From sequence record MZ375237.1: DNA of 39,218 nucleotides; one strand, 5' to 3'. Made by a program: the position numbers and the translations under genes. The first letter of the stretch is position 1. Each line of letters begins with the position of its first letter. This document shows positions 1 through 15,748 of the stretch, piece by piece. Below the pieces are notes generated by a model. It saw nothing but the letters and a program-made list of their open reading frames with translations, did no database searches and was not told the DNA's origin. The stretch is from Escherichia phage T7.

Positions 1-160
1 TCTCACAGTGTACGGACCTAAAGTTCCCCCATAGGGGGTACCTAAAGCCCAGCCAATCACCTAAAGTCAACCTTCGGTTGACCTTGAGGGTTCCCTAAGG
101 GTTGGGGATGACCCTTGGGTTTGTCTTTGGGTGTTACCTTGAGTGTCTCTCTGTGTCCCT
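1..160. repeat. Left direct terminal repeat (160 bp), identical to 39059..39218
   Basis: Window starts tctcacagtgtacggacc... and the same 160-bp block ending ...tctctgtgtccct recurs at the right end; matches T7 terminal redundancy. Confidence 0.95.
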
Positions 161-172
161 ACCTGTTACAGT

Positions 173-340
173 CTCCTAAAGTATCCTCCTAAAGTCACCT
201 CCTAACGTCCATCCTAAAGCCAACACCTAAAGCCTACACCTAAAGACCCATCAAGTCAACGCCTATCTTAAAGTTTAAACATAAAGACCAGACCTAAAGA
301 CCAGACCTAAAGACACTACATAAAGACCAGACCTAAAGAC
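173..340. repeat. Array of short imperfect CCTAAAG/ACCTAAAG-type repeats next to left terminal repeat
   Basis: Repeated ...cctaaag... units read directly (e.g. agaccagacctaaag three times); known T7 left-end short repeats. Confidence 0.8.
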
Positions 341-387
341 GCCTTGTTGTTAGCCATAAAGTGATAACCTTTAATCATTGTCTTTAT

Positions 388-410
388 TAATACAACTCAC
401 TATAGGGAGA
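388..410 (+). promoter_or_regulatory. T7 RNA polymerase promoter phiOL (+1 G at 405)
   Basis: taatacaactcactatagggaga, one mismatch to the T7 consensus. Confidence 0.85.
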
Positions 411-461
411 GACAACTTAAAGAGACTTAAAAGATTAATTTAAAATTTATCAAAAAGAGTA

Positions 462-498
462 TTGACTTAAAGTCTAACCTATAGGATACTTACAGCCA
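462..498 (+). promoter_or_regulatory. Host sigma70 early promoter A1
   Basis: -35 ttgact, 17-bp spacer, -10 gatact, start near A498; matches T7 A1. Confidence 0.85.
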
Positions 499-588
499 TC
501 GAGAGGGACACGGCGAATAGCCATCCCAATCGACACCGGGGTCAACCGGATAAGTAGACAGCCTGATAAGTCGCACGAAAAACAGGTA

Positions 589-626
589 TTGACAACATGA
601 AGTAACATGCAGTAAGATACAAATCG
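589..626 (+). promoter_or_regulatory. Host sigma70 early promoter A2
   Basis: -35 ttgaca and -10 taagat with about 18-bp spacer. Confidence 0.8.
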
Positions 627-713
627 CTAGGTAACACTAGCAGCGTCAACCGGGCGCACAGTGCCTTCTAGGTGACTTAAGCGCACCACGGCACATAAGG
701 TGAAACAAAACGG

Positions 714-750
714 TTGACAACATGAAGTAAACACGGTACGATGTACCACA
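714..750 (+). promoter_or_regulatory. Host sigma70 early promoter A3
   Basis: -35 ttgaca, 17-bp spacer, -10 tacgat. Confidence 0.8.
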
Positions 751-858
751 TGAAACGACAGTGAGTCACCACACTGAAAGGTGATGCGGTCTAACGAAAC
801 CTGACCTAAGACGCTCTTTAACAATCTGGTAAATAGCTCTTGAGTGCATGACTAGCGG

Positions 859-900
859 ATAACTCAAGGGTATCGCAAGGTGCCCTTTATGATATTCACT
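859..900 (+). promoter_or_regulatory. RNase III processing hairpin R0.3
   Basis: ctcaaggg...ccctttatgat imperfect hairpin of the same family as R1.1/R1.3/R4.7/R18.5. Confidence 0.6.
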
Positions 901-924
901 AATAACTGCACGAGGTAACACAAG

Positions 925-1278
925 ATGGCTATGTCTAACATGACTTACAACAACGTTTTCGACCACGCTTACGAAATGCTGAAAGAAAACATCCGTTATG
1001 ATGACATCCGTGACACTGATGACCTGCACGATGCTATTCACATGGCTGCCGATAATGCAGTTCCGCACTACTACGCTGACATCTTTAGCGTAATGGCAAG
1101 TGAGGGCATTGACCTTGAGTTCGAAGACTCTGGTCTGATGCCTGACACCAAGGACGTAATCCGCATCCTGCAAGCGCGTATCTATGAGCAATTAACGATT
1201 GACCTCTGGGAAGACGCAGAAGACTTGCTCAATGAATACTTGGAGGAAGTCGAGGAGTACGAGGAGGATGAAGAGTAA
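925..1278 (+). CDS. 0.3: Gene 0.3 Ocr, anti-restriction DNA-mimic protein
   Basis: 117-aa highly acidic [20 protein letters not shown]...EEYEEDEE; first gene after A1-A3. Confidence 0.95.
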
Positions 1279-1409
1279 TGTCTACTACCAACGTGCAATA
1301 CGGTCTGACCGCTCAAACTGTACTTTTCTATAGCGACATGGGGCGGCGTGGCATAGACGAAAGGAAAAGGTTAAAGCCAAGAAACTCGCCGCACTTGAAC
1401 AGGCACTAG
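1278..1409 (+). pseudogene. 0.4: Truncated gene 0.4 remnant: first 21 codons fused at a deletion junction to 22 foreign codons
   Basis: ATG overlaps 0.3 stop (taATG); [21 protein letters not shown] matches gp0.4 N-terminus, then diverges after about 1341. Confidence 0.6.
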
Positions 1410-1457
1410 CCAACACACTGAACGCTATCTCATAACGAACATAAAGGACACAATGCA

Positions 1458-2537
1458 ATGAACATTACCGACATCATGAACGCTATCGACGCAATCAAAG
1501 CACTGCCAATCTGTGAACTTGACAAGCGTCAAGGTATGCTTATCGACTTACTGGTCGAGATGGTCAACAGCGAGACGTGTGATGGCGAGCTAACCGAACT
1601 AAATCAGGCACTTGAGCATCAAGATTGGTGGACTACCTTGAAGTGTCTCACGGCTGACGCAGGGTTCAAGATGCTCGGTAATGGTCACTTCTCGGCTGCT
1701 TATAGTCACCCGCTGCTACCTAACAGAGTGATTAAGGTGGGCTTTAAGAAAGAGGATTCAGGCGCAGCCTATACCGCATTCTGCCGCATGTATCAGGGTC
1801 GTCCTGGTATCCCTAACGTCTACGATGTACAGCGCCACGCTGGATGCTATACGGTGGTACTTGACGCACTTAAGGATTGCGAGCGTTTCAACAATGATGC
1901 CCATTATAAATACGCTGAGATTGCAAGCGACATCATTGATTGCAATTCGGATGAGCATGATGAGTTAACTGGATGGGATGGTGAGTTTGTTGAAACTTGT
2001 AAACTAATCCGCAAGTTCTTTGAGGGCATCGCCTCATTCGACATGCATAGCGGGAACATCATGTTCTCAAATGGAGACGTACCATACATCACCGACCCGG
2101 TATCATTCTCGCAGAAGAAAGACGGTGGCGCATTCAGCATCGACCCTGAGGAACTCATCAAGGAAGTCGAGGAAGTCGCACGACAGAAAGAAATTGACCG
2201 CGCTAAGGCCCGTAAAGAACGTCACGAGGGGCGCTTAGAGGCACGCAGATTCAAACGTCGCAACCGCAAGGCACGTAAAGCACACAAAGCTAAGCGCGAA
2301 AGAATGCTTGCTGCGTGGCGATGGGCTGAACGTCAAGAACGGCGTAACCATGAGGTAGCTGTAGATGTACTAGGAAGAACCAATAACGCTATGCTCTGGG
2401 TCAACATGTTCTCTGGGGACTTTAAGGCGCTTGAGGAACGAATCGCGCTGCACTGGCGTAATGCTGACCGGATGGCTATCGCTAATGGTCTTACGCTCAA
2501 CATTGATAAGCAACTTGACGCAATGTTAATGGGCTGA
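1458..2537 (+). CDS. 0.7: Gene 0.7 Ser/Thr protein kinase, host shutoff
   Basis: 359-aa [20 protein letters not shown]... with very basic C-terminal region; matches gp0.7. Confidence 0.93.
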
Positions 2538-2544
2538 TAGTCTT

Positions 2545-2595
2545 ATCTTACAGGTCATCTGCGGGTGGCCTGAATAGGTACGATTTACTAACTGG
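2545..2595 (+). promoter_or_regulatory. Intergenic region expected to hold RNase III site R1 and minor host promoter C
   Basis: Placed by collinearity with T7; hairpin not resolved confidently by eye. Confidence 0.35.
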
Positions 2596-2607
2596 AAGAG
2601 GCACTAA

Positions 2608-5259
2608 ATGAACACGATTAACATCGCTAAGAACGACTTCTCTGACATCGAACTGGCTGCTATCCCGTTCAACACTCTGGCTGACCATTACGGTGAGCGT
2701 TTAGCTCGCGAACAGTTGGCCCTTGAGCATGAGTCTTACGAGATGGGTGAAGCACGCTTCCGCAAGATGTTTGAGCGTCAACTTAAAGCTGGTGAGGTTG
2801 CGGATAACGCTGCCGCCAAGCCTCTCATCACTACCCTACTCCCTAAGATGATTGCACGCATCAACGACTGGTTTGAGGAAGTGAAAGCTAAGCGCGGCAA
2901 GCGCCCGACAGCCTTCCAGTTCCTGCAAGAAATCAAGCCGGAAGCCGTAGCGTACATCACCATTAAGACCACTCTGGCTTGCCTAACCAGTGCTGACAAT
3001 ACAACCGTTCAGGCTGTAGCAAGCGCAATCGGTCGGGCCATTGAGGACGAGGCTCGCTTCGGTCGTATCCGTGACCTTGAAGCTAAGCACTTCAAGAAAA
3101 ACGTTGAGGAACAACTCAACAAGCGCGTAGGGCACGTCTACAAGAAAGCATTTATGCGAGTTGTCGAGGCTGACATGCTCTCTAAGGGTCTACTCGGTGG
3201 CGAGGCGTGGTCTTCGTGGCATAAGGAAGACTCTATTCATGTAGGAGTACGCTGCATCGAGATGCTCATTGAGTCAACCGGAATGGTTAGCTTACACCGC
3301 CAAAATGCTGGCGTAGTAGGTCAAGACTCTGAGACTATCGAACTCGCACCTGAATACGCTGAGGCTATCGCAACCCGTGCAGGTGCGCTGGCTGGCATCT
3401 CTCCGATGTTCCAACCTTGCGTAGTTCCTCCTAAGCCGTGGACTGGCATTACTGGTGGTGGCTATTGGGCTAACGGTCGTCGTCCTCTGGCGCTGGTGCG
3501 TACTCACAGTAAGAAAGCACTGATGCGCTACGAAGACGTTTACATGCCTGAGGTGTACAAAGCGATTAACATTGCGCAAAACACCGCATGGAAAATCAAC
3601 AAGAAAGTCCTAGCGGTCGCCAACGTAATCACCAAGTGGAAGCATTGTCCGGTCGAGGACATCCCTGCGATTGAGCGTGAAGAACTCCCGATGAAACCGG
3701 AAGACATCGACATGAATCCTGAGGCTCTCACCGCGTGGAAACGTGCTGCCGCTGCTGTGTACCGCAAGGACAAGGCTCGCAAGTCTCGCCGTATCAGCCT
3801 TGAGTTCATGCTTGAGCAAGCCAATAAGTTTGCTAACCATAAGGCCATCTGGTTCCCTTACAACATGGACTGGCGCGGTCGTGTTTACGCTGTGTCAATG
3901 TTCAACCCGCAAGGTAACGATATGACCAAAGGACTGCTTACGCTGGCGAAAGGTAAACCAATCGGTAAGGAAGGTTACTACTGGCTGAAAATCCACGGTG
4001 CAAACTGTGCGGGTGTCGATAAGGTTCCGTTCCCTGAGCGCATCAAGTTCATTGAGGAAAACCACGAGAACATCATGGCTTGCGCTAAGTCTCCACTGGA
4101 GAACACTTGGTGGGCTGAGCAAGATTCTCCGTTCTGCTTCCTTGCGTTCTGCTTTGAGTACGCTGGGGTACAGCACCACGGCCTGAGCTATAACTGCTCC
4201 CTTCCGCTGGCGTTTGACGGGTCTTGCTCTGGCATCCAGCACTTCTCCGCGATGCTCCGAGATGAGGTAGGTGGTCGCGCGGTTAACTTGCTTCCTAGTG
4301 AAACCGTTCAGGACATCTACGGGATTGTTGCTAAGAAAGTCAACGAGATTCTACAAGCAGACGCAATCAATGGGACCGATAACGAAGTAGTTACCGTGAC
4401 CGATGAGAACACTGGTGAAATCTCTGAGAAAGTCAAGCTGGGCACTAAGGCACTGGCTGGTCAATGGCTGGCTTACGGTGTTACTCGCAGTGTGACTAAG
4501 CGTTCAGTCATGACGCTGGCTTACGGGTCCAAAGAGTTCGGCTTCCGTCAACAAGTGCTGGAAGATACCATTCAGCCAGCTATTGATTCCGGCAAGGGTC
4601 TGATGTTCACTCAGCCGAATCAGGCTGCTGGATACATGGCTAAGCTGATTTGGGAATCTGTGAGCGTGACGGTGGTAGCTGCGGTTGAAGCAATGAACTG
4701 GCTTAAGTCTGCTGCTAAGCTGCTGGCTGCTGAGGTCAAAGATAAGAAGACTGGAGAGATTCTTCGCAAGCGTTGCGCTGTGCATTGGGTAACTCCTGAT
4801 GGTTTCCCTGTGTGGCAGGAATACAAGAAGCCTATTCAGACGCGCTTGAACCTGATGTTCCTCGGTCAGTTCCGCTTACAGCCTACCATTAACACCAACA
4901 AAGATAGCGAGATTGATGCACACAAACAGGAGTCTGGTATCGCTCCTAACTTTGTACACAGCCAAGACGGTAGCCACCTTCGTAAGACTGTAGTGTGGGC
5001 ACACGAGAAGTACGGAATCGAATCTTTTGCACTGATTCACGACTCCTTCGGTACCATTCCGGCTGACGCTGCGAACCTGTTCAAAGCAGTGCGCGAAACT
5101 ATGGTTGACACATATGAGTCTTGTGATGTACTGGCTGATTTCTACGACCAGTTCGCTGACCAGTTGCACGAGTCTCAATTGGACAAAATGCCAGCACTTC
5201 CGGCTAAAGGTAACTTGAACCTCCGTGACATCTTAGAGTCGGACTTCGCGTTCGCGTAA
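2608..5259 (+). CDS. 1: Gene 1, T7 RNA polymerase
   Basis: 883-aa ORF MNTINIAKNDFSDIELAAIPFNTLADHYGERLAREQLALEHESYEMGEARFRKMFERQ... ending ...SDFAFA. Confidence 0.98.
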   Translation: MNTINIAKNDFSDIELAAIPFNTLADHYGERLAREQLALEHESYEMGEARFRKMFERQLKAGEVADNAAAKPLITTLLPKMIARINDWFEEVKAKRGKRPTAFQFLQEIKPEAVAYITIKTTLACLTSADNTTVQAVASAIGRAIEDEARFGRIRDLEAKHFKKNVEEQLNKRVGHVYKKAFMRVVEADMLSKGLLGGEAWSSWHKEDSIHVGVRCIEMLIESTGMVSLHRQNAGVVGQDSETIELAPEYAEAIATRAGALAGISPMFQPCVVPPKPWTGITGGGYWANGRRPLALVRTHSKKALMRYEDVYMPEVYKAINIAQNTAWKINKKVLAVANVITKWKHCPVEDIPAIEREELPMKPEDIDMNPEALTAWKRAAAAVYRKDKARKSRRISLEFMLEQANKFANHKAIWFPYNMDWRGRVYAVSMFNPQGNDMTKGLLTLAKGKPIGKEGYYWLKIHGANCAGVDKVPFPERIKFIEENHENIMACAKSPLENTWWAEQDSPFCFLAFCFEYAGVQHHGLSYNCSLPLAFDGSCSGIQHFSAMLRDEVGGRAVNLLPSETVQDIYGIVAKKVNEILQADAINGTDNEVVTVTDENTGEISEKVKLGTKALAGQWLAYGVTRSVTKRSVMTLAYGSKEFGFRQQVLEDTIQPAIDSGKGLMFTQPNQAAGYMAKLIWESVSVTVVAAVEAMNWLKSAAKLLAAEVKDKKTGEILRKRCAVHWVTPDGFPVWQEYKKPIQTRLNLMFLGQFRLQPTINTNKDSEIDAHKQESGIAPNFVHSQDGSHLRKTVVWAHEKYGIESFALIHDSFGTIPADAANLFKAVRETMVDTYESCDVLADFYDQFADQLHESQLDKMPALPAKGNLNLRDILESDFAFA

Positions 5260-5267
5260 CGCCAAAT

Positions 5268-5290
5268 CAATACGACTCACTATAGAGGGA
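5268..5290 (+). promoter_or_regulatory. T7 promoter phi1.1A (+1 at 5285)
   Basis: caatacgactcactatagaggga. Confidence 0.85.
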
Positions 5291-5335
5291 CAAACTCAAG
5301 GTCATTCGCAAGAGTGGCCTTTATGATTGACCTTC
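5291..5335 (+). promoter_or_regulatory. RNase III site R1.1
   Basis: ctcaaggtcattcgcaagagtggcctttatgat hairpin. Confidence 0.7.
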
Positions 5336-5342
5336 TTCCGGT

Positions 5343-5365
5343 TAATACGACTCACTATAGGAGAA
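5343..5365 (+). promoter_or_regulatory. T7 promoter phi1.1B (+1 at 5360)
   Basis: taatacgactcactataggaga. Confidence 0.9.
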
Positions 5366-5443
5366 CCTTAAGGTTTAACTTTAAGACCCTTAAGTGTTAA
5401 TTAGAGATTTAAATTAAAGAATTACTAAGAGAGGACTTTAAGT
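5366..5443. other. AT-rich segment of the primary replication origin
   Basis: ttaattagagatttaaattaaagaattactaag AT-rich tract just after phi1.1A/phi1.1B; T7 primary origin lies here. Confidence 0.6.
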
Positions 5444-5572
5444 ATGCGTAACTTCGAAAAGATGACCAAACGTTCTAACCGTAATGCTCGTGACTTCGAG
5501 GCAACCAAAGGTCGCAAGTTGAATAAGACTAAGCGTGACCGCTCTCACAAGCGTAGCTGGGAGGGTCAGTAA
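5444..5572 (+). CDS. 1.1: Gene 1.1, small basic protein of unknown function
   Basis: 42-aa ORF MRNFEKMTKRSNRNARDFEATKGRKLNKTKRDRSHKRSWEGQ; below ORF-track cutoff. Confidence 0.8.
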   Translation: MRNFEKMTKRSNRNARDFEATKGRKLNKTKRDRSHKRSWEGQ

Positions 5573-5573
5573 G

Positions 5574-5831
5574 ATGGGACGTTTATATAGTGGTAATCTG
5601 GCAGCATTCAAGGCAGCAACAAACAAGCTGTTCCAGTTAGACTTAGCGGTCATTTATGATGACTGGTATGATGCCTATACAAGAAAAGATTGCATACGGT
5701 TACGTATTGAGGACAGGAGTGGAAACCTGATTGATACTAGCACCTTCTACCACCACGACGAGGACGTTCTGTTCAATATGTGTACTGATTGGTTGAACCA
5801 TATGTATGACCAGTTGAAGGACTGGAAGTAA
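5574..5831 (+). CDS. 1.2: Gene 1.2, inhibitor of host dGTPase
   Basis: MGRLYSGNLAAFKAATNKLFQ...; start chosen 2 nt after 1.1 stop with gggaggg RBS. Confidence 0.88.
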   Translation: MGRLYSGNLAAFKAATNKLFQLDLAVIYDDWYDAYTRKDCIRLRIEDRSGNLIDTSTFYHHDEDVLFNMCTDWLNHMYDQLKDWK

Positions 5832-5851
5832 TACGACTCAGTATAGGGACA
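5829..5851 (+). promoter_or_regulatory. T7 promoter phi1.3 (+1 at 5846)
   Basis: taatacgactcagtatagggaca; its TAA is the gene 1.2 stop. Confidence 0.85.
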
Positions 5852-5895
5852 ATGCTTAAGGTCGCTCTCTAGGAGTGGCCTTAGTCATTTAACCA
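5852..5895 (+). promoter_or_regulatory. RNase III site R1.3
   Basis: cttaaggtcgctctctaggagtggccttagtcat hairpin. Confidence 0.65.
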
Positions 5896-5911
5896 ATAGG
5901 AGATAAACATT

Positions 5912-6991
5912 ATGATGAACATTAAGACTAACCCGTTTAAAGCCGTGTCTTTCGTAGAGTCTGCCATTAAGAAGGCTCTGGATAACGCTGGGTATCTTAT
6001 CGCTGAAATCAAGTACGATGGTGTACGCGGGAACATCTGCGTAGACAATACTGCTAACAGTTACTGGCTCTCTCGTGTATCTAAAACGATTCCGGCACTG
6101 GAGCACTTAAACGGGTTTGATGTTCGCTGGAAGCGTCTACTGAACGATGACCGTTGCTTCTACAAAGATGGCTTTATGCTTGATGGGGAACTCATGGTCA
6201 AGGGCGTAGACTTTAACACAGGGTCCGGCCTACTGCGTACCAAATGGACTGACACGAAGAACCAAGAGTTCCATGAAGAGTTATTCGTTGAACCAATCCG
6301 TAAGAAAGATAAAGTTCCCTTTAAGCTGCACACTGGACACCTTCACATAAAACTGTACGCTATCCTCCCGCTGCACATCGTGGAGTCTGGAGAAGACTGT
6401 GATGTCATGACGTTGCTCATGCAGGAACACGTTAAGAACATGCTGCCTCTGCTACAGGAATACTTCCCTGAAATCGAATGGCAAGCGGCTGAATCTTACG
6501 AGGTCTACGATATGGTAGAACTACAGCAACTGTACGAGCAGAAGCGAGCAGAAGGCCATGAGGGTCTCATTGTGAAAGACCCGATGTGTATCTATAAGCG
6601 CGGTAAGAAATCTGGCTGGTGGAAAATGAAACCTGAGAACGAAGCTGACGGTATCATTCAGGGTCTGGTATGGGGTACAAAAGGTCTGGCTAATGAAGGT
6701 AAAGTGATTGGTTTTGAGGTGCTTCTTGAGAGTGGTCGTTTAGTTAACGCCACGAATATCTCTCGCGCCTTAATGGATGAGTTCACTGAGACAGTAAAAG
6801 AGGCCACCCTAAGTCAATGGGGATTCTTTAGCCCATACGGTATTGGCGACAACGATGCTTGTACTATTAACCCTTACGATGGCTGGGCGTGTCAAATTAG
6901 CTACATGGAGGAAACACCTGATGGCTCTTTGCGGCACCCATCGTTCGTAATGTTCCGTGGCACCGAGGACAACCCTCAAGAGAAAATGTAA
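5912..6991 (+). CDS. 1.3: Gene 1.3, ATP-dependent DNA ligase
   Basis: 359-aa ORF with ligase adenylation motif EIKYDGVRG. Confidence 0.95.
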   Translation: MMNIKTNPFKAVSFVESAIKKALDNAGYLIAEIKYDGVRGNICVDNTANSYWLSRVSKTIPALEHLNGFDVRWKRLLNDDRCFYKDGFMLDGELMVKGVDFNTGSGLLRTKWTDTKNQEFHEELFVEPIRKKDKVPFKLHTGHLHIKLYAILPLHIVESGEDCDVMTLLMQEHVKNMLPLLQEYFPEIEWQAAESYEVYDMVELQQLYEQKRAEGHEGLIVKDPMCIYKRGKKSGWWKMKPENEADGIIQGLVWGTKGLANEGKVIGFEVLLESGRLVNATNISRALMDEFTETVKEATLSQWGFFSPYGIGDNDACTINPYDGWACQISYMEETPDGSLRHPSFVMFRGTEDNPQEKM

Positions 6992-6995
6992 TCAC

Positions 6996-7030
6996 ACTGG
7001 CTCACCTTCGGGTGGGCCTTTCTGCGTTTA
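6996..7030 (+). terminator. Early terminator TE for host RNA polymerase
   Basis: GC-rich hairpin ggctcaccttcgggtgggcc followed by tttctgcgttt. Confidence 0.85.
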
Positions 7031-7041
7031 TAAGGAGACAC

Positions 7042-7064
7042 TTTTACGACTCACTAAAGGAGGT
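7042..7064 (+). promoter_or_regulatory. T7 promoter phi1.5, variant with TTT at -17..-15 (+1 at 7059)
   Basis: tttTACGACTCACTAAAGGAGG; core -14..+6 intact, upstream AT-rich triplet altered by the deletion junction. Confidence 0.75.
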
Positions 7065-7071
7065 ACACACC

Positions 7072-7161
7072 ATGATGTACTTAATGCCATTACTCATCGT
7101 CATTGTAGGATGCCTTGCGCTCCACTGTAGCGATGATGATATGCCAGATGGTCACGCTTAA
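7072..7161 (+). CDS. 1.5: Gene 1.5, small protein of unknown function
   Basis: 29-aa ORF MMYLMPLLIVIVGCLALHCSDDDMPDGHA behind aaggagg RBS. Confidence 0.8.
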   Translation: MMYLMPLLIVIVGCLALHCSDDDMPDGHA

Positions 7162-7181
7162 TACGACTCACTAAAGGAGAC
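7159..7181 (+). promoter_or_regulatory. T7 promoter phi1.6 (+1 at 7176)
   Basis: taatacgactcactaaaggagaca; TAA is the gene 1.5 stop. Confidence 0.88.
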
Positions 7182-7186
7182 ACTAT

Positions 7187-7447
7187 ATGTTTCGACTTCA
7201 TTACAACAAAAGCGTTAAGAATTTCACGGTTCGCCGTGCTGACCGTTCAATCGTATGTGCGAGCGAGCGCCGAGCTAAGATACCTCTTATTGGTAACACA
7301 GTTCCTTTGGCACCGAGCGTCCACATCATTATCACCCGTGGTGACTTTGAGAAAGCAATAGACAAGAAACGTCCGGTTCTTAGTGTGGCAGTGACCCGCT
7401 TCCCGTTCGTCCGTCTGTTACTCAAACGAATCAAGGAGGTGTTCTGA
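7187..7447 (+). CDS. 1.6: Gene 1.6, unknown function
   Basis: 86-aa [24 protein letters not shown]... Confidence 0.85.
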
Positions 7448-8029
7448 TGGGACTGTTAGATGGTGAAGCCTGGGAAAAAGAAAACCCGCCAGTACAAGCA
7501 ACTGGGTGTATAGCTTGCTTAGAGAAAGATGACCGTTATCCACACACCTGTAACAAAGGAGCTAACGATATGACCGAACGTGAACAAGAGATGATCATTA
7601 AGTTGATAGACAATAATGAAGGTCGCCCAGATGATTTGAATGGCTGCGGTATTCTCTGCTCCAATGTCCCTTGCCACCTCTGCCCCGCAAATAACGATCA
7701 AAAGATAACCTTAGGTGAAATCCGAGCGATGGACCCACGTAAACCACATCTGAATAAACCTGAGGTAACTCCTACAGATGACCAGCCTTCCGCTGAGACA
7801 ATCGAAGGTGTCACTAAGCCTTCCCACTACATGCTGTTTGACGACATTGAGGCTATCGAAGTGATTGCTCGTTCAATGACCGTTGAGCAGTTCAAGGGAT
7901 ACTGCTTCGGTAACATCTTAAAGTACAGACTACGTGCTGGTAAGAAGTCAGAGTTAGCGTACTTAGAGAAAGACCTAGCGAAAGCAGACTTCTATAAAGA
8001 ACTCTTTGAGAAACATAAGGATAAATGTT

Positions 8030-9137: not shown

Positions 9138-9557
9138 GTGGAACTGCGGGAGAAAATCCTTGAGCGAATCAAGGTGACTTCCTCTGGGTGTTGGGAGTGG
9201 CAGGGCGCTACGAACAATAAAGGGTACGGGCAGGTGTGGTGCAGCAATACCGGAAAGGTTGTCTACTGTCATCGCGTAATGTCTAATGCTCCGAAAGGTT
9301 CTACCGTCCTGCACTCCTGTGATAATCCATTATGTTGTAACCCTGAACACCGTTCCATAGGAACTCCAAAAGAGAACTCCACTGACATGGTAAATAAGGG
9401 TCGCTCACACAAGGGGTATAAACTTTCAGACGAAGACGTAATGGCAATCATGGAGTCCAGCGAGTCCAATGTATCCTTAGCTCGCACCTATGGTGTCTCC
9501 CAACAGACTATTTGTGATATACGCAAAGGGAGGCGACATGGCAGGTTACGGCGCTAA
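9138..9557 (+). CDS. 2.8: Gene 2.8, HNH-endonuclease-like protein (GTG start)
   Basis: HNH-type motif HSCDNPLCCNPEH; clear paralog of gene 7.7. Confidence 0.85.
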   Translation: MELREKILERIKVTSSGCWEWQGATNNKGYGQVWCSNTGKVVYCHRVMSNAPKGSTVLHSCDNPLCCNPEHRSIGTPKENSTDMVNKGRSHKGYKLSDEDVMAIMESSESNVSLARTYGVSQQTICDIRKGRRHGRLRR

Positions 9558-9987: not shown

Positions 9988-10442
9988 TGGCTCGTGTACA
10001 GTTTAAACAACGTGAATCTACTGACGCAATCTTTGTTCACTGCTCGGCTACCAAGCCAAGTCAGAATGTTGGTGTCCGTGAGATTCGCCAGTGGCACAAA
10101 GAGCAGGGTTGGCTCGATGTGGGATACCACTTTATCATCAAGCGAGACGGTACTGTGGAGGCAGGACGAGATGAGATGGCTGTAGGCTCTCACGCTAAGG
10201 GTTACAACCACAACTCTATCGGCGTCTGCCTTGTTGGTGGTATCGACGATAAAGGTAAGTTCGACGCTAACTTTACGCCAGCCCAAATGCAATCCCTTCG
10301 CTCACTGCTTGTCACACTGCTGGCTAAGTACGAAGGCGCTGTGCTTCGCGCCCATCATGAGGTGGCGCCGAAGGCTTGCCCTTCGTTCGACCTTAAGCGT
10401 TGGTGGGAGAAGAACGAACTGGTCACTTCTGACCGTGGATAA
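9987..10442 (+). CDS. 3.5: Gene 3.5, lysozyme (amidase) and RNA polymerase inhibitor
   Basis: 151-aa MARVQFKQRESTDAIFVHCSATKPSQNVGVREIRQWHKEQGWLDVGYHFII... Confidence 0.95.
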   Translation: MARVQFKQRESTDAIFVHCSATKPSQNVGVREIRQWHKEQGWLDVGYHFIIKRDGTVEAGRDEMAVGSHAKGYNHNSIGVCLVGGIDDKGKFDANFTPAQMQSLRSLLVTLLAKYEGAVLRAHHEVAPKACPSFDLKRWWEKNELVTSDRG

Positions 10443-13633: not shown

Positions 13634-15748
13634 ATGATCGTTTCTGACATCGAAGCTAACGCCCTCTTAGAGAGCGTCACTAAGTTCCACTGCGGGGTTA
13701 TCTACGACTACTCCACCGCTGAGTACGTAAGCTACCGTCCGAGTGACTTCGGTGCGTATCTGGATGCGCTGGAAGCCGAGGTTGCACGAGGCGGTCTTAT
13801 TGTGTTCCACAACGGTCACAAGTATGACGTTCCTGCATTGACCAAACTGGCAAAGTTGCAATTGAACCGAGAGTTCCACCTTCCTCGTGAGAACTGTATT
13901 GACACCCTTGTGTTGTCACGTTTGATTCATTCCAACCTCAAGGACACCGATATGGGTCTTCTGCGTTCCGGCAAGTTGCCCGGAAAACGCTTTGGGTCTC
14001 ACGCTTTGGAGGCGTGGGGTTATCGCTTAGGCGAGATGAAGGGTGAATACAAAGACGACTTTAAGCGTATGCTTGAAGAGCAGGGTGAAGAATACGTTGA
14101 CGGAATGGAGTGGTGGAACTTCAACGAAGAGATGATGGACTATAACGTTCAGGACGTTGTGGTAACTAAAGCTCTCCTTGAGAAGCTACTCTCTGACAAA
14201 CATTACTTCCCTCCTGAGATTGACTTTACGGACGTAGGATACACTACGTTCTGGTCAGAATCCCTTGAGGCCGTTGACATTGAACATCGTGCTGCATGGC
14301 TGCTCGCTAAACAAGAGCGCAACGGGTTCCCGTTTGACACAAAAGCAATCGAAGAGTTGTACGTAGAGTTAGCTGCTCGCCGCTCTGAGTTGCTCCGTAA
14401 ATTGACCGAAACGTTCGGCTCGTGGTATCAGCCTAAAGGTGGCACTGAGATGTTCTGCCATCCGCGAACAGGTAAGCCACTACCTAAATACCCTCGCATT
14501 AAGACACCTAAAGTTGGTGGTATCTTTAAGAAGCCTAAGAACAAGGCACAGCGAGAAGGCCGTGAGCCTTGCGAACTTGATACCCGCGAGTACGTTGCTG
14601 GTGCTCCTTACACCCCAGTTGAACATGTTGTGTTTAACCCTTCGTCTCGTGACCACATTCAGAAGAAACTCCAAGAGGCTGGGTGGGTCCCGACCAAGTA
14701 CACCGATAAGGGTGCTCCTGTGGTGGACGATGAGGTACTCGAAGGAGTACGTGTAGATGACCCTGAGAAGCAAGCCGCTATCGACCTCATTAAAGAGTAC
14801 TTGATGATTCAGAAGCGAATCGGACAGTCTGCTGAGGGAGACAAAGCATGGCTTCGTTATGTTGCTGAGGATGGTAAGATTCATGGTTCTGTTAACCCTA
14901 ATGGAGCAGTTACGGGTCGTGCGACCCATGCGTTCCCAAACCTTGCGCAAATTCCGGGTGTACGTTCTCCTTATGGAGAGCAGTGTCGCGCTGCTTTTGG
15001 CGCTGAGCACCATTTGGATGGGATAACTGGTAAGCCTTGGGTTCAGGCTGGCATCGACGCATCCGGTCTTGAGCTACGCTGCTTGGCTCACTTCATGGCT
15101 CGCTTTGATAACGGCGAGTACGCTCACGAGATTCTTAACGGCGACATCCACACTAAGAACCAGATAGCTGCTGAACTACCTACCCGAGATAACGCTAAGA
15201 CGTTCATCTATGGGTTCCTCTATGGTGCTGGTGATGAGAAGATTGGACAGATTGTTGGTGCTGGTAAAGAGCGCGGTAAGGAACTCAAGAAGAAATTCCT
15301 TGAGAACACCCCCGCGATTGCAGCACTCCACGAGTCTATCCAACAGACACTTGTCGAGTCCTCTCAATGGGTAGCTGGTGAGCAACAAGTCAAGTGGAAA
15401 CGCCGCTGGATTAAAGGTCTGGATGGTCGTAAGGTACACGTTCGTAGTCCTCACGCTGCCTTGAATACCCTACTGCAATCTGCTGGTGCTCTCATCTGCA
15501 AACTGTGGATTATCAAGACCGAAGAGATGCTCGTAGAGAAAGGCTTGAAGCATGGCTGGGATGGGGACTTTGCGTACATGGCATGGGTACATGATGAAAT
15601 CCAAGTAGGCTGCCGTACCGAAGAGATTGCTCAGGTGGTCATTGAGACCGCACAAGAAGCGATGCGCTGGGTTGGAGACCACTGGAACTTCCGGTGTCTT
15701 CTGGATACCGAAGGTAAGATGGGTCCTAATTGGGCGATTTGCCACTGA
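13634..15748 (+). CDS. 5: Gene 5, DNA polymerase
   Basis: 704-aa [26 protein letters not shown]...; Pol I family with exonuclease motif at N-terminus. Confidence 0.97.

What the first reader, a model, noticed from the sequence alone, without database searches (positions are those of the whole stretch)
7030..7072. Exact deletion of the gene 1.4 ORF (156 bp, start to stop)
Between TE and gene 1.5 the sequence reads ...taaggagacacttt|tacgactcactaaaggagg.... In canonical T7 the gene 1.4 ORF sits between these halves, with its TAA stop forming positions -17..-15 of phi1.5. The offset change from 563 to 719 is exactly 156 bp. No flanking microhomology is evident, and a start-to-stop loss looks more like a designed or strongly selected event than random illegitimate recombination.
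Basis: partly seen in the sequence, partly recalled or inferred. Interest (0 to 1): 0.6.

Follow-up and report, generated by a model that had tools for sequence, protein, structure and literature searches.

The report
Engineered deletion of T7 gene 1.4
The window is a laboratory phage T7 genome in which the small non-essential gene 1.4 was cut out exactly from start codon to stop codon by a published CRISPR/Cas9 genome-reduction method, so the finding is real but already explained.

Summary
The window is a complete T7 genome that differs structurally from the reference (NC_001604) by two deletions. One removes T7 7608-7763, which is exactly the annotated gene 1.4 coding sequence (156 bp, ATG to TAA). 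Its junction lies between window 7044 and 7045, with no microhomology and only one possible placement. The deletion replaces positions -17..-15 of promoter phi1.5 (TAA) with TTT.

The same junction occurs in at least 54 GenBank records named [quoted passage not shown]. These are isolates from Yuan et al., NAR 2022 (CiPGr). In that method a plasmid "cassette-gene" carries a Cas9 spacer plus two 50-bp homology arms designed to delete a whole gene. The window is 100% identical over its first 8 kb to several of these isolates. It is probably the one record missing from the series, MZ375237 (by naming, T7_30L).

Sister genomes carry the same junction on three different spontaneous early-region deletions. 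They also carry other deletions that begin exactly at start codons.

Novelty: already known. Interest: low.

The parts
5912..6991 (+). Gene 1.3 (DNA ligase), intact; the upstream neighbour of the deletion
   Evidence: ORF list; colinear with T7 6475-7554
6999..7030 (+). Early terminator TE (hairpin 6999-7018 plus U-rich tail), intact; lies wholly within the left homology arm
   Evidence: Identical to T7 7562-7593; TE is annotated at T7 7588; the RNA fold gives an 8-bp stem at -15.4 kcal/mol. The simple terminator scan did not flag it.
7032..7044 (+). Orphaned ribosome-binding site and spacer of the deleted gene 1.4 (AAGGAGACACTTT). Its last three bases, TTT, now occupy -17..-15 of phi1.5.
   Evidence: Sequence read; alignment to T7 7595-7607
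7044..7045 (+). Deletion junction: T7 7607 joined to T7 7764; gene 1.4 (T7 7608-7763, 156 bp, 51 codons plus stop) is absent
6995..7094 (+). Footprint expected of the 2 x 50-bp CiPGr repair template (T7 7558-7607 + 7764-7813), present as one uninterrupted, exactly matching 100-bp stretch
   Evidence: Exact string search. The arm length comes from the paper.
7042..7064 (+). Promoter phi1.5 (-17..+6, +1 at 7059) with -16 and -15 changed A>T (TTTTACGACTCACTAAAGGAGGT instead of TAATACG...)
   Evidence: Comparison of all 17 T7 promoters between the reference and the window
7072..7161 (+). Gene 1.5 (29 codons), intact; the downstream neighbour
   Evidence: PHROG phrog_12128, unknown function

Best explanation
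[quoted passage not shown] By the naming series it is most probably clone T7_30L. T7 was passaged on E. coli MG1655 carrying SpCas9 and a pooled plasmid library. For gene 1.4, a 'cassette-gene' plasmid supplied a spacer that cuts inside the gene and a 100-bp repair template made of the 50 bp on either side of the ORF. Homologous recombination with the template joined T7 7607 to 7764 and removed the ORF from ATG to TAA. The recombinant has no protospacer, so it escapes Cas9 and spreads. What the sequences show: the exact boundaries, identity with the deposited isolates, and the time order (gene 1.4 present at transfers 10 and 20, absent from transfer 30 on). What is inferred from the paper's methods: the particular cassette and spacer used. 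The stop codon of gene 1.4 is also -17..-15 of phi1.5, so the design changed two promoter bases as a side effect (-16 and -15, A>T). It also left the gene 1.4 ribosome-binding site orphaned just downstream of TE. Gene 1.5 and later genes can still be transcribed from phi1.1A, phi1.1B and phi1.3 upstream and from phi1.6 downstream. I therefore infer that the change is tolerated.
For: (1) The deleted interval is exactly the CDS 7608-7763, with 0 bp microhomology and a unique placement.
(2) The 501-bp stretch across the junction matches 50 records (MZ375238-294, OL964739-750) contiguously at 100%. Every other T7 record matches in two pieces with gene 1.4 in between. The 61-bp junction query adds MZ375269, 279, 281 and 286.
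(3) Those records are 'Mutant Escherichia phage T7 clone T7_30S / T7_40L / T7_40S / T7_50L / T7_270S / T7_300L.2 / T7_5t1'. This fits the paper's scheme: isolates every 10 transfers, L/S = large/small plaque, and a T7_300L named in the text.
[quoted passage not shown] It also says the sequenced T7 isolates came mainly from the cassette-gene library.
(5) Window 1-8000 is 100% identical to T7_50L, T7_40S and others. The whole window equals T7_50L apart from an extra 292-bp gene 3.8 deletion and 13 SNPs.
(6) The accession between T7_20S (MZ375236) and T7_30S (MZ375238) is absent from the collection.
(7) Gene 1.4 holds 11 NGG-flanked 20-mers.
(8) In T7_300L.2 the other deletions behave the same way. 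Gene 4.7 is deleted as an exact CDS. The 5.3 and 7.7 deletions start exactly at the ATG. Genes 4.7, 5.3, 7.7 and 3.8 all have 0 bp microhomology. The early-region and 19.5 deletions, which the paper calls undesigned, have variable ends and microhomologies of up to 13 bp.
(9) The same gene 1.4 junction sits on three different early-region deletions: 563, 1480 and 676 bp. T7_20L/S already have an early-region deletion but still carry gene 1.4. The junction therefore arose repeatedly or was moved by recombination, as expected for a templated edit.
Against: The paper's main text never names gp1.4, and its supplementary tables (cassette sequences, accession list) are not held. The link between the GenBank records and the paper therefore rests on clone names, organism and design logic. 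The identity window = MZ375237 cannot be checked. The authors say they avoided 'likely regulatory elements', yet this deletion clips three bases of phi1.5. This is a small inconsistency, explained by the stop codon overlapping the promoter.
Confidence: 0.95

Rival explanations
1. A spontaneous deletion by illegitimate or short-repeat recombination during serial passage, which happened to coincide with the ORF and was then selected because it is smaller or escapes Cas9.
For: Spontaneous deletions do occur in these same genomes: 563, 1480 and 676 bp in the early region, and 189 and 356 bp at gene 19.5. The paper reports undesigned large-fragment losses and CRISPR-escape mutations.
Against: The clearly spontaneous deletions have variable end points that do not match the ends of any CDS, and perfect microhomologies ranging from 1 bp (the window's own 563-bp deletion) to 13 bp. 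The gene 1.4 deletion has 0 bp, matches both CDS ends to the base, and is identical in at least 54 isolates on at least three different backgrounds. The chance of hitting this CDS exactly is about 1 in 40,000, even given the length.
Confidence: 0.02
2. An engineered gene 1.4 deletion made by a different method or laboratory, such as Red/ccdB recombineering of cloned segments and rebooting (SMART) or a synthetic or refactored T7.
For: A second group deleted gp1.4 'seamlessly' in the T7-B chassis. Its records PV223881 and PV223883 match the junction over 61 bp at 98.4%.
Against: That junction differs by one base: TTTAACGAC versus TTTTACGAC, equivalent to deleting 7609-7764. Those genomes also carry many other designed deletions. 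The window instead shares its exact junction, its 563-bp early deletion and its SNPs with the CiPGr isolates.
Confidence: 0.02
3. A natural T7 variant or relative that lacks gene 1.4, or an assembly artefact.
For: None found. Some natural relatives match only the phi1.5/gene 1.5 half of the junction query (H155-H160).
Against: No environmental or wild-type T7-group record holds the junction. All wild-type T7 records keep gene 1.4. The junction recurs in dozens of independently sequenced isolates that differ elsewhere, which argues against a one-off mis-assembly.
Confidence: 0.01

Closest known systems
CiPGr 'cassette-gene' whole-gene deletions in phage T7 (Yuan et al., Nucleic Acids Res 2022, PMC9825161); sister isolates MZ375238-MZ375294 and OL964739-750
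   Same: The gene 1.4 junction is identical to the base. Window 1-8000 is 100% identical to T7_50L, T7_40S and others. The window shares the 563-bp early deletion and SNPs with these isolates, and the boundary logic matches the other designed deletions.
   Different: Nothing structural. The window has only two deletions, which places it early in the series (39,218 bp, compared with 36.5-39.1 kb for the deposited isolates that carry the gene 1.4 deletion).
T7-B chassis phage made by the SMART method (mBio 2025, PMC12153263; PV223881, PV223883)
   Same: gp1.4 was also removed seamlessly as a known non-essential gene, with a 156-bp loss at the same site.
   Different: The junction is shifted by one base (or carries a T>A at -14 of phi1.5). 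It was made by Red/ccdB recombineering on cloned fragments and rebooting, not by Cas9 selection during passage. It comes with many more deletions.
Classical spontaneous T7 deletion mutants arising between short direct repeats (Studier-type early-region deletions; recalled from memory, not looked up here)
   Same: Loss of non-essential class I/II genes in a viable phage. The window's other deletion (563 bp, genes 0.4-0.6) is of this kind, with a 9-of-12 imperfect repeat at its ends.
   Different: The gene 1.4 deletion has no repeat at its ends, and its end points are the ends of the CDS.

Membership tests
CiPGr cassette-gene deletion (Cas9 cut plus plasmid-templated homologous recombination) | The deleted interval corresponds to a whole annotated gene | tested here: met
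   The gap is T7 7608-7763, exactly the gene 1.4 CDS in NC_001604
CiPGr cassette-gene deletion (Cas9 cut plus plasmid-templated homologous recombination) | Scarless junction, with the two 50-bp flanks joined directly and unaltered | tested here: met
   The 100-bp string T7 7558-7607 + 7764-7813 is found exactly at window 6995-7094. It is also found in T7_40L, T7_30S and T7_300L.2, and is absent from T7_10S and T7_20L/S.
CiPGr cassette-gene deletion (Cas9 cut plus plasmid-templated homologous recombination) | SpCas9-targetable protospacers (NGG PAM) inside the deleted gene | tested here: met
   7 plus-strand and 4 minus-strand 20-mers with NGG lie wholly inside gene 1.4. Which ones were actually used is unknown.
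CiPGr cassette-gene deletion (Cas9 cut plus plasmid-templated homologous recombination) | Sequence identity with deposited isolates of that experiment | tested here: met
   100% identity over window 1-8000 to MZ375241, 243, 251, 253 and 240. Genome-wide colinearity with T7_50L and T7_40S apart from their extra deletions.
CiPGr cassette-gene deletion (Cas9 cut plus plasmid-templated homologous recombination) | Match to the published cassette (arm and spacer) sequence for gp1.4, and to the accession list in Supplementary Table S10 | not testable with these tools
   No supplementary files are held for PMC9825161. MZ375237 is absent from the collection.
Spontaneous short-repeat (illegitimate) deletion | Direct repeat or microhomology at the two end points, which are unrelated to gene boundaries | tested here: not met
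   0 bp microhomology, and the end points equal the CDS ends. By contrast, the window's 563-bp deletion has a 9/12 imperfect repeat, and sister genomes have 9- and 13-bp repeats.

The most novel reading that the evidence does not exclude
The gene 1.4 deletion may have been more than a neutral Cas9-escape edit. Loss of the small hydrophobic gp1.4 (DUF5464), or the accompanying A>T changes at -16/-15 of phi1.5, may have given a fitness benefit under the passage conditions. That would help explain why the deletion appears by transfer 30 and is kept in every later isolate seen. It is also kept in the OL9647xx records (for example T7_5t1); whether those are the isolates the paper selected on plasmid-free hosts could not be checked.
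Probability: 0.1. Interest if true: 0.25.

Novelty: already known. Interest (0 to 1): 0.06.

Why it matters
It matters mainly for housekeeping. It identifies the window as an engineered laboratory genome, so its gene content should not be read as natural variation. Two small practical points follow.

First, deleting gene 1.4 'start to stop' unavoidably edits phi1.5, because the stop codon forms -17..-15 of that promoter. The viable isolates show that T7 tolerates TTT in place of TAA there.

Second, the exact junction sequence works as a provenance marker. The CiPGr junction (TTTTACGAC) and the SMART junction (TTTAACGAC) differ by one base.

Tried and rejected
- **Terminator and promoter scan (window 6900-7250).** It found nothing, not even the known TE, whose tail is too poor in T for the rule. 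TE integrity was shown instead by identity to the reference and by folding.
- **Quantitative effect of A>T at -16/-15 of a T7 promoter.** I looked in two open papers on promoter variants. Neither gives values for these positions in the text, and the primary source (Imburgio et al. 2000) is only cited there. The size of the effect on phi1.5 therefore remains an inference.
- **Searches for 'MZ375233' in full text and for '1.4', 'MZ375' and 'OL964' in the CiPGr paper.** No hits. The accessions are in a supplementary table that is not held.
- **PhageMaP preprint.** It says nothing about gp1.4.
- **Function of gp1.4.** Pfam gives DUF5464 and PHROGs gives phrog_17655, 'unknown function'. The function of the lost gene stays unknown.
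- **Mechanical ORF at 7012-7161.** This GTG start extends the gene 1.5 frame across the junction. I rejected it as a gene because it starts inside the TE hairpin and has no ribosome-binding site.

Full report
**What is in the sequence.** The region reads ...gtttataaggagacacttt|tacgactcactaaaggaggtacacaccatgatg.... The window as a whole is a complete T7 genome of 39,218 bp, with the 160-bp terminal repeat at both ends. It aligns to NC_001604 (39,937 bp) in three colinear blocks. Base-by-base refinement finds only two structural differences:
- A 563-bp gap at T7 1341/2-1903/4, affecting genes 0.4-0.6.
- A 156-bp gap at T7 7608-7763.

The second gap has exactly the coordinates of the annotated gene 1.4 CDS. 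Its placement is unique. The bases on either side of each end point differ (T/A and A/T), so microhomology is zero.

The annotated +1 of phi1.5 is 7778, so T7 7761-7763 (the TAA stop of gene 1.4) is -17..-15 of that promoter. In the window these positions (7042-7044) are the TTT that used to precede the gene 1.4 ATG. The promoter therefore reads TTTTACGACTCACTAAAGGAGG.

**Surroundings.**
- Gene 1.3 (ligase, 5912-6991) is untouched.
- The TE hairpin (6999-7018, -15.4 kcal/mol) is untouched.
- The gene 1.4 Shine-Dalgarno (7032-7037) is left orphaned.
- Gene 1.5 (7072-7161), phi1.6 (+1 at 7176) and gene 1.6 (7187-7447) are untouched.
- The lost protein is a 51-residue hydrophobic peptide of unknown function (Pfam DUF5464, PHROG 17655).

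**Provenance.** A 501-bp query across the junction matches 50 phage records contiguously at 100%: MZ375238-294 and OL964739-750. All wild-type and other T7 records match in two pieces with gene 1.4 in between. A 61-bp junction query adds MZ375269, 279, 281 and 286, and shows no natural phage with this junction.

The records are titled 'Mutant Escherichia phage T7 clone T7_10S, T7_20L, T7_20S, T7_30S, T7_40L, T7_40S, T7_50L, T7_270S, T7_300L.2, T7_5t1'. The accession that would fall between T7_20S (MZ375236) and T7_30S (MZ375238) is missing from the collection. Window 1-8000 is 100% identical to T7_50L, T7_40S and three others. Genome-wide, T7_50L equals the window plus a 292-bp gene 3.8 deletion, and T7_40S equals the window plus deletions in genes 4.3 and 19.5. 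The window is thus a member of this isolate series, most probably T7_30L (inference).

**How it was made.** The clone names fit Yuan, Shi, Jiang and Ma, Nucleic Acids Res 2022 (PMC9825161). In that study T7 was serially transferred on MG1655 carrying SpCas9 and a pooled pTarget library. Eight large (L) and eight small (S) plaques were picked every 10 transfers, and 60 T7 isolates were sequenced; T7_300L is named in the text.

Each 200-bp cassette holds a 20-bp spacer and a 2 x 50-bp repair template. [quoted passage not shown] The 100-bp string formed by the two 50-bp flanks of gene 1.4 is present intact at window 6995-7094. Gene 1.4 offers 11 NGG-flanked protospacers.

The mechanism therefore has four steps:
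1. Cas9 cuts incoming T7 DNA inside gene 1.4.
2. Recombination with the plasmid template joins 7607 to 7764.
3. The product lacks the target and is immune to Cas9.
4. It spreads through the population.

The boundaries, the identity with the isolates and the timing are shown by the sequences. The particular cassette is inferred, because the supplementary tables are not held.

**Internal controls from sister genomes.** The table below compares two kinds of deletion.

| Deletion | Where seen | End points | Microhomology |
|---|---|---|---|
| Gene 4.7 | T7_300L.2 | exact CDS (13927-14334) | 0 bp |
| Genes 5.3 and 7.7 | T7_300L.2 | start exactly at the ATG; stop 19-24 bp before the stop codon, presumably to spare the next gene's start signals | 0 bp |
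| Gene 3.8 | T7_300L.2 | internal to the CDS | 0 bp |
| Early region, 563 bp | window | not at CDS ends | 1 bp perfect (9 of 12 imperfect) |
| Early region, 1480 and 676 bp | T7_30S; T7_300L.2 | variable, not at CDS ends | 13 and 4 bp |
| Gene 19.5, 189 and 356 bp | T7_30S; T7_300L.2 | variable, not at CDS ends | 9 and 3 bp |

The paper itself calls the early-region and gene 19.5 losses undesigned (gp0.3-0.6 and gp19.5).

The gene 1.4 junction is identical on all three early-region backgrounds. T7_20L/S already have an early-region deletion but still carry gene 1.4, whereas T7_30S has the 1480-bp deletion and lacks gene 1.4. So the edit either recurred or moved by recombination. Either is expected of a templated edit and not of a chance deletion.

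**Consequences (partly inferred).** Only two promoter bases change (-16 and -15, A>T); -17 stays T and -14 onward is native. From established knowledge of T7 RNA polymerase, -17..-13 is an AT-rich element read by the N-terminal AT-rich recognition loop, and specificity lies at -11..-7 (the latter is restated). A>T changes keep the element AT-rich, so I expect a modest weakening. I could not find numbers. Genes 1.5-1.8 are also reached by T7 RNA polymerase from phi1.1A, phi1.1B and phi1.3 upstream and from phi1.6 downstream (positions). This fits the viability of dozens of isolates carrying the junction.

**A second laboratory.** Another group later deleted gp1.4 by Red/ccdB recombineering (SMART, mBio 2025). 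Its genomes (PV223881, PV223883) have a junction one base different: TTTAACGAC, equivalent to deleting 7609-7764. This shows that the window's junction is specific to CiPGr.

**Verdict.** The feature is a published, deliberately engineered whole-gene deletion. Novelty: already known. Interest: low.

Noticed in passing
window 1340-1352 (junction after 1340/1341): A second deletion of 563 bp relative to NC_001604 (T7 1341/2-1903/4). It is 564 bp relative to the lab parent, which has an extra A at T7 1896. It removes the end of gene 0.4, gene 0.5 and most of gene 0.6. Its end points lie in a 9-of-12 imperfect direct repeat (GTGCGCTGTGGC / GGGCGGCGTGGC) and do not coincide with CDS ends, so it looks spontaneous. 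That matches the 'undesigned large fragment gp0.3-0.6' class in the CiPGr paper. It leaves a 43-codon gp0.4 fusion ORF.
   Followed up: partly
window 405 and window 3158: The +1 base of promoter phiOL is changed A>G (TATAAGGAGA -> TATAGGGAGA, matching the strong-promoter consensus). T7 RNA polymerase carries Q184R. Both changes are shared with the later isolates T7_300L.2 and T7_5t1 but are absent from T7_10S, T7_20L/S and T7_30S. They may be adaptive changes during passage.
   Followed up: partly
window 9352-9353 (T7 10071-10072, gene 2.8 L72R): A dinucleotide substitution TA>GT. It lies 6-7 nt from an AGG PAM, in the seed of a plus-strand protospacer (T7 10058-10077). It is also present in T7_5t1. 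It may be a Cas9-escape mutation in a targeted gene that was not deleted.
   Followed up: partly
window 15330, 32300, 33453, 35542, 38887, 162; and 19087, 23966, 25524, 34544: Other point differences from NC_001604: gene 5 R566H, gene 16 G809S and A1193V, gene 17 N546K, and non-coding changes at T7 39606 and 162. Four further changes (7.3 R91H, 11 A153E, 12 T468A, 17 K214E) are also in T7_10S, so they are differences of the lab stock rather than new mutations.
   Followed up: partly
L010 (MZ375286, T7_270S) 1030-1070: This later isolate has the same gene 1.4 junction and has also lost gene 1.5. The phi1.5 core runs straight into the phi1.6 downstream sequence and the gene 1.6 start. This is consistent with recombination between the two near-identical promoter repeats (TACGACTCACTAAAGGAG).
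   Followed up: partly
L009 (PV223881, T7-B-G) 1525-1545: An independently engineered gp1.4 deletion (SMART method, mBio 2025) has junction TTTAACGAC instead of TTTTACGAC. This is one base different, equivalent to deleting T7 7609-7764. The junction sequence therefore distinguishes the two engineered lineages.
   Followed up: yes
window 7012-7161: The mechanical ORF list shows a 49-codon GTG ORF that extends the gene 1.5 frame upstream across the deletion junction. It starts inside the TE hairpin and has no ribosome-binding site, so it is probably meaningless.
   Followed up: no
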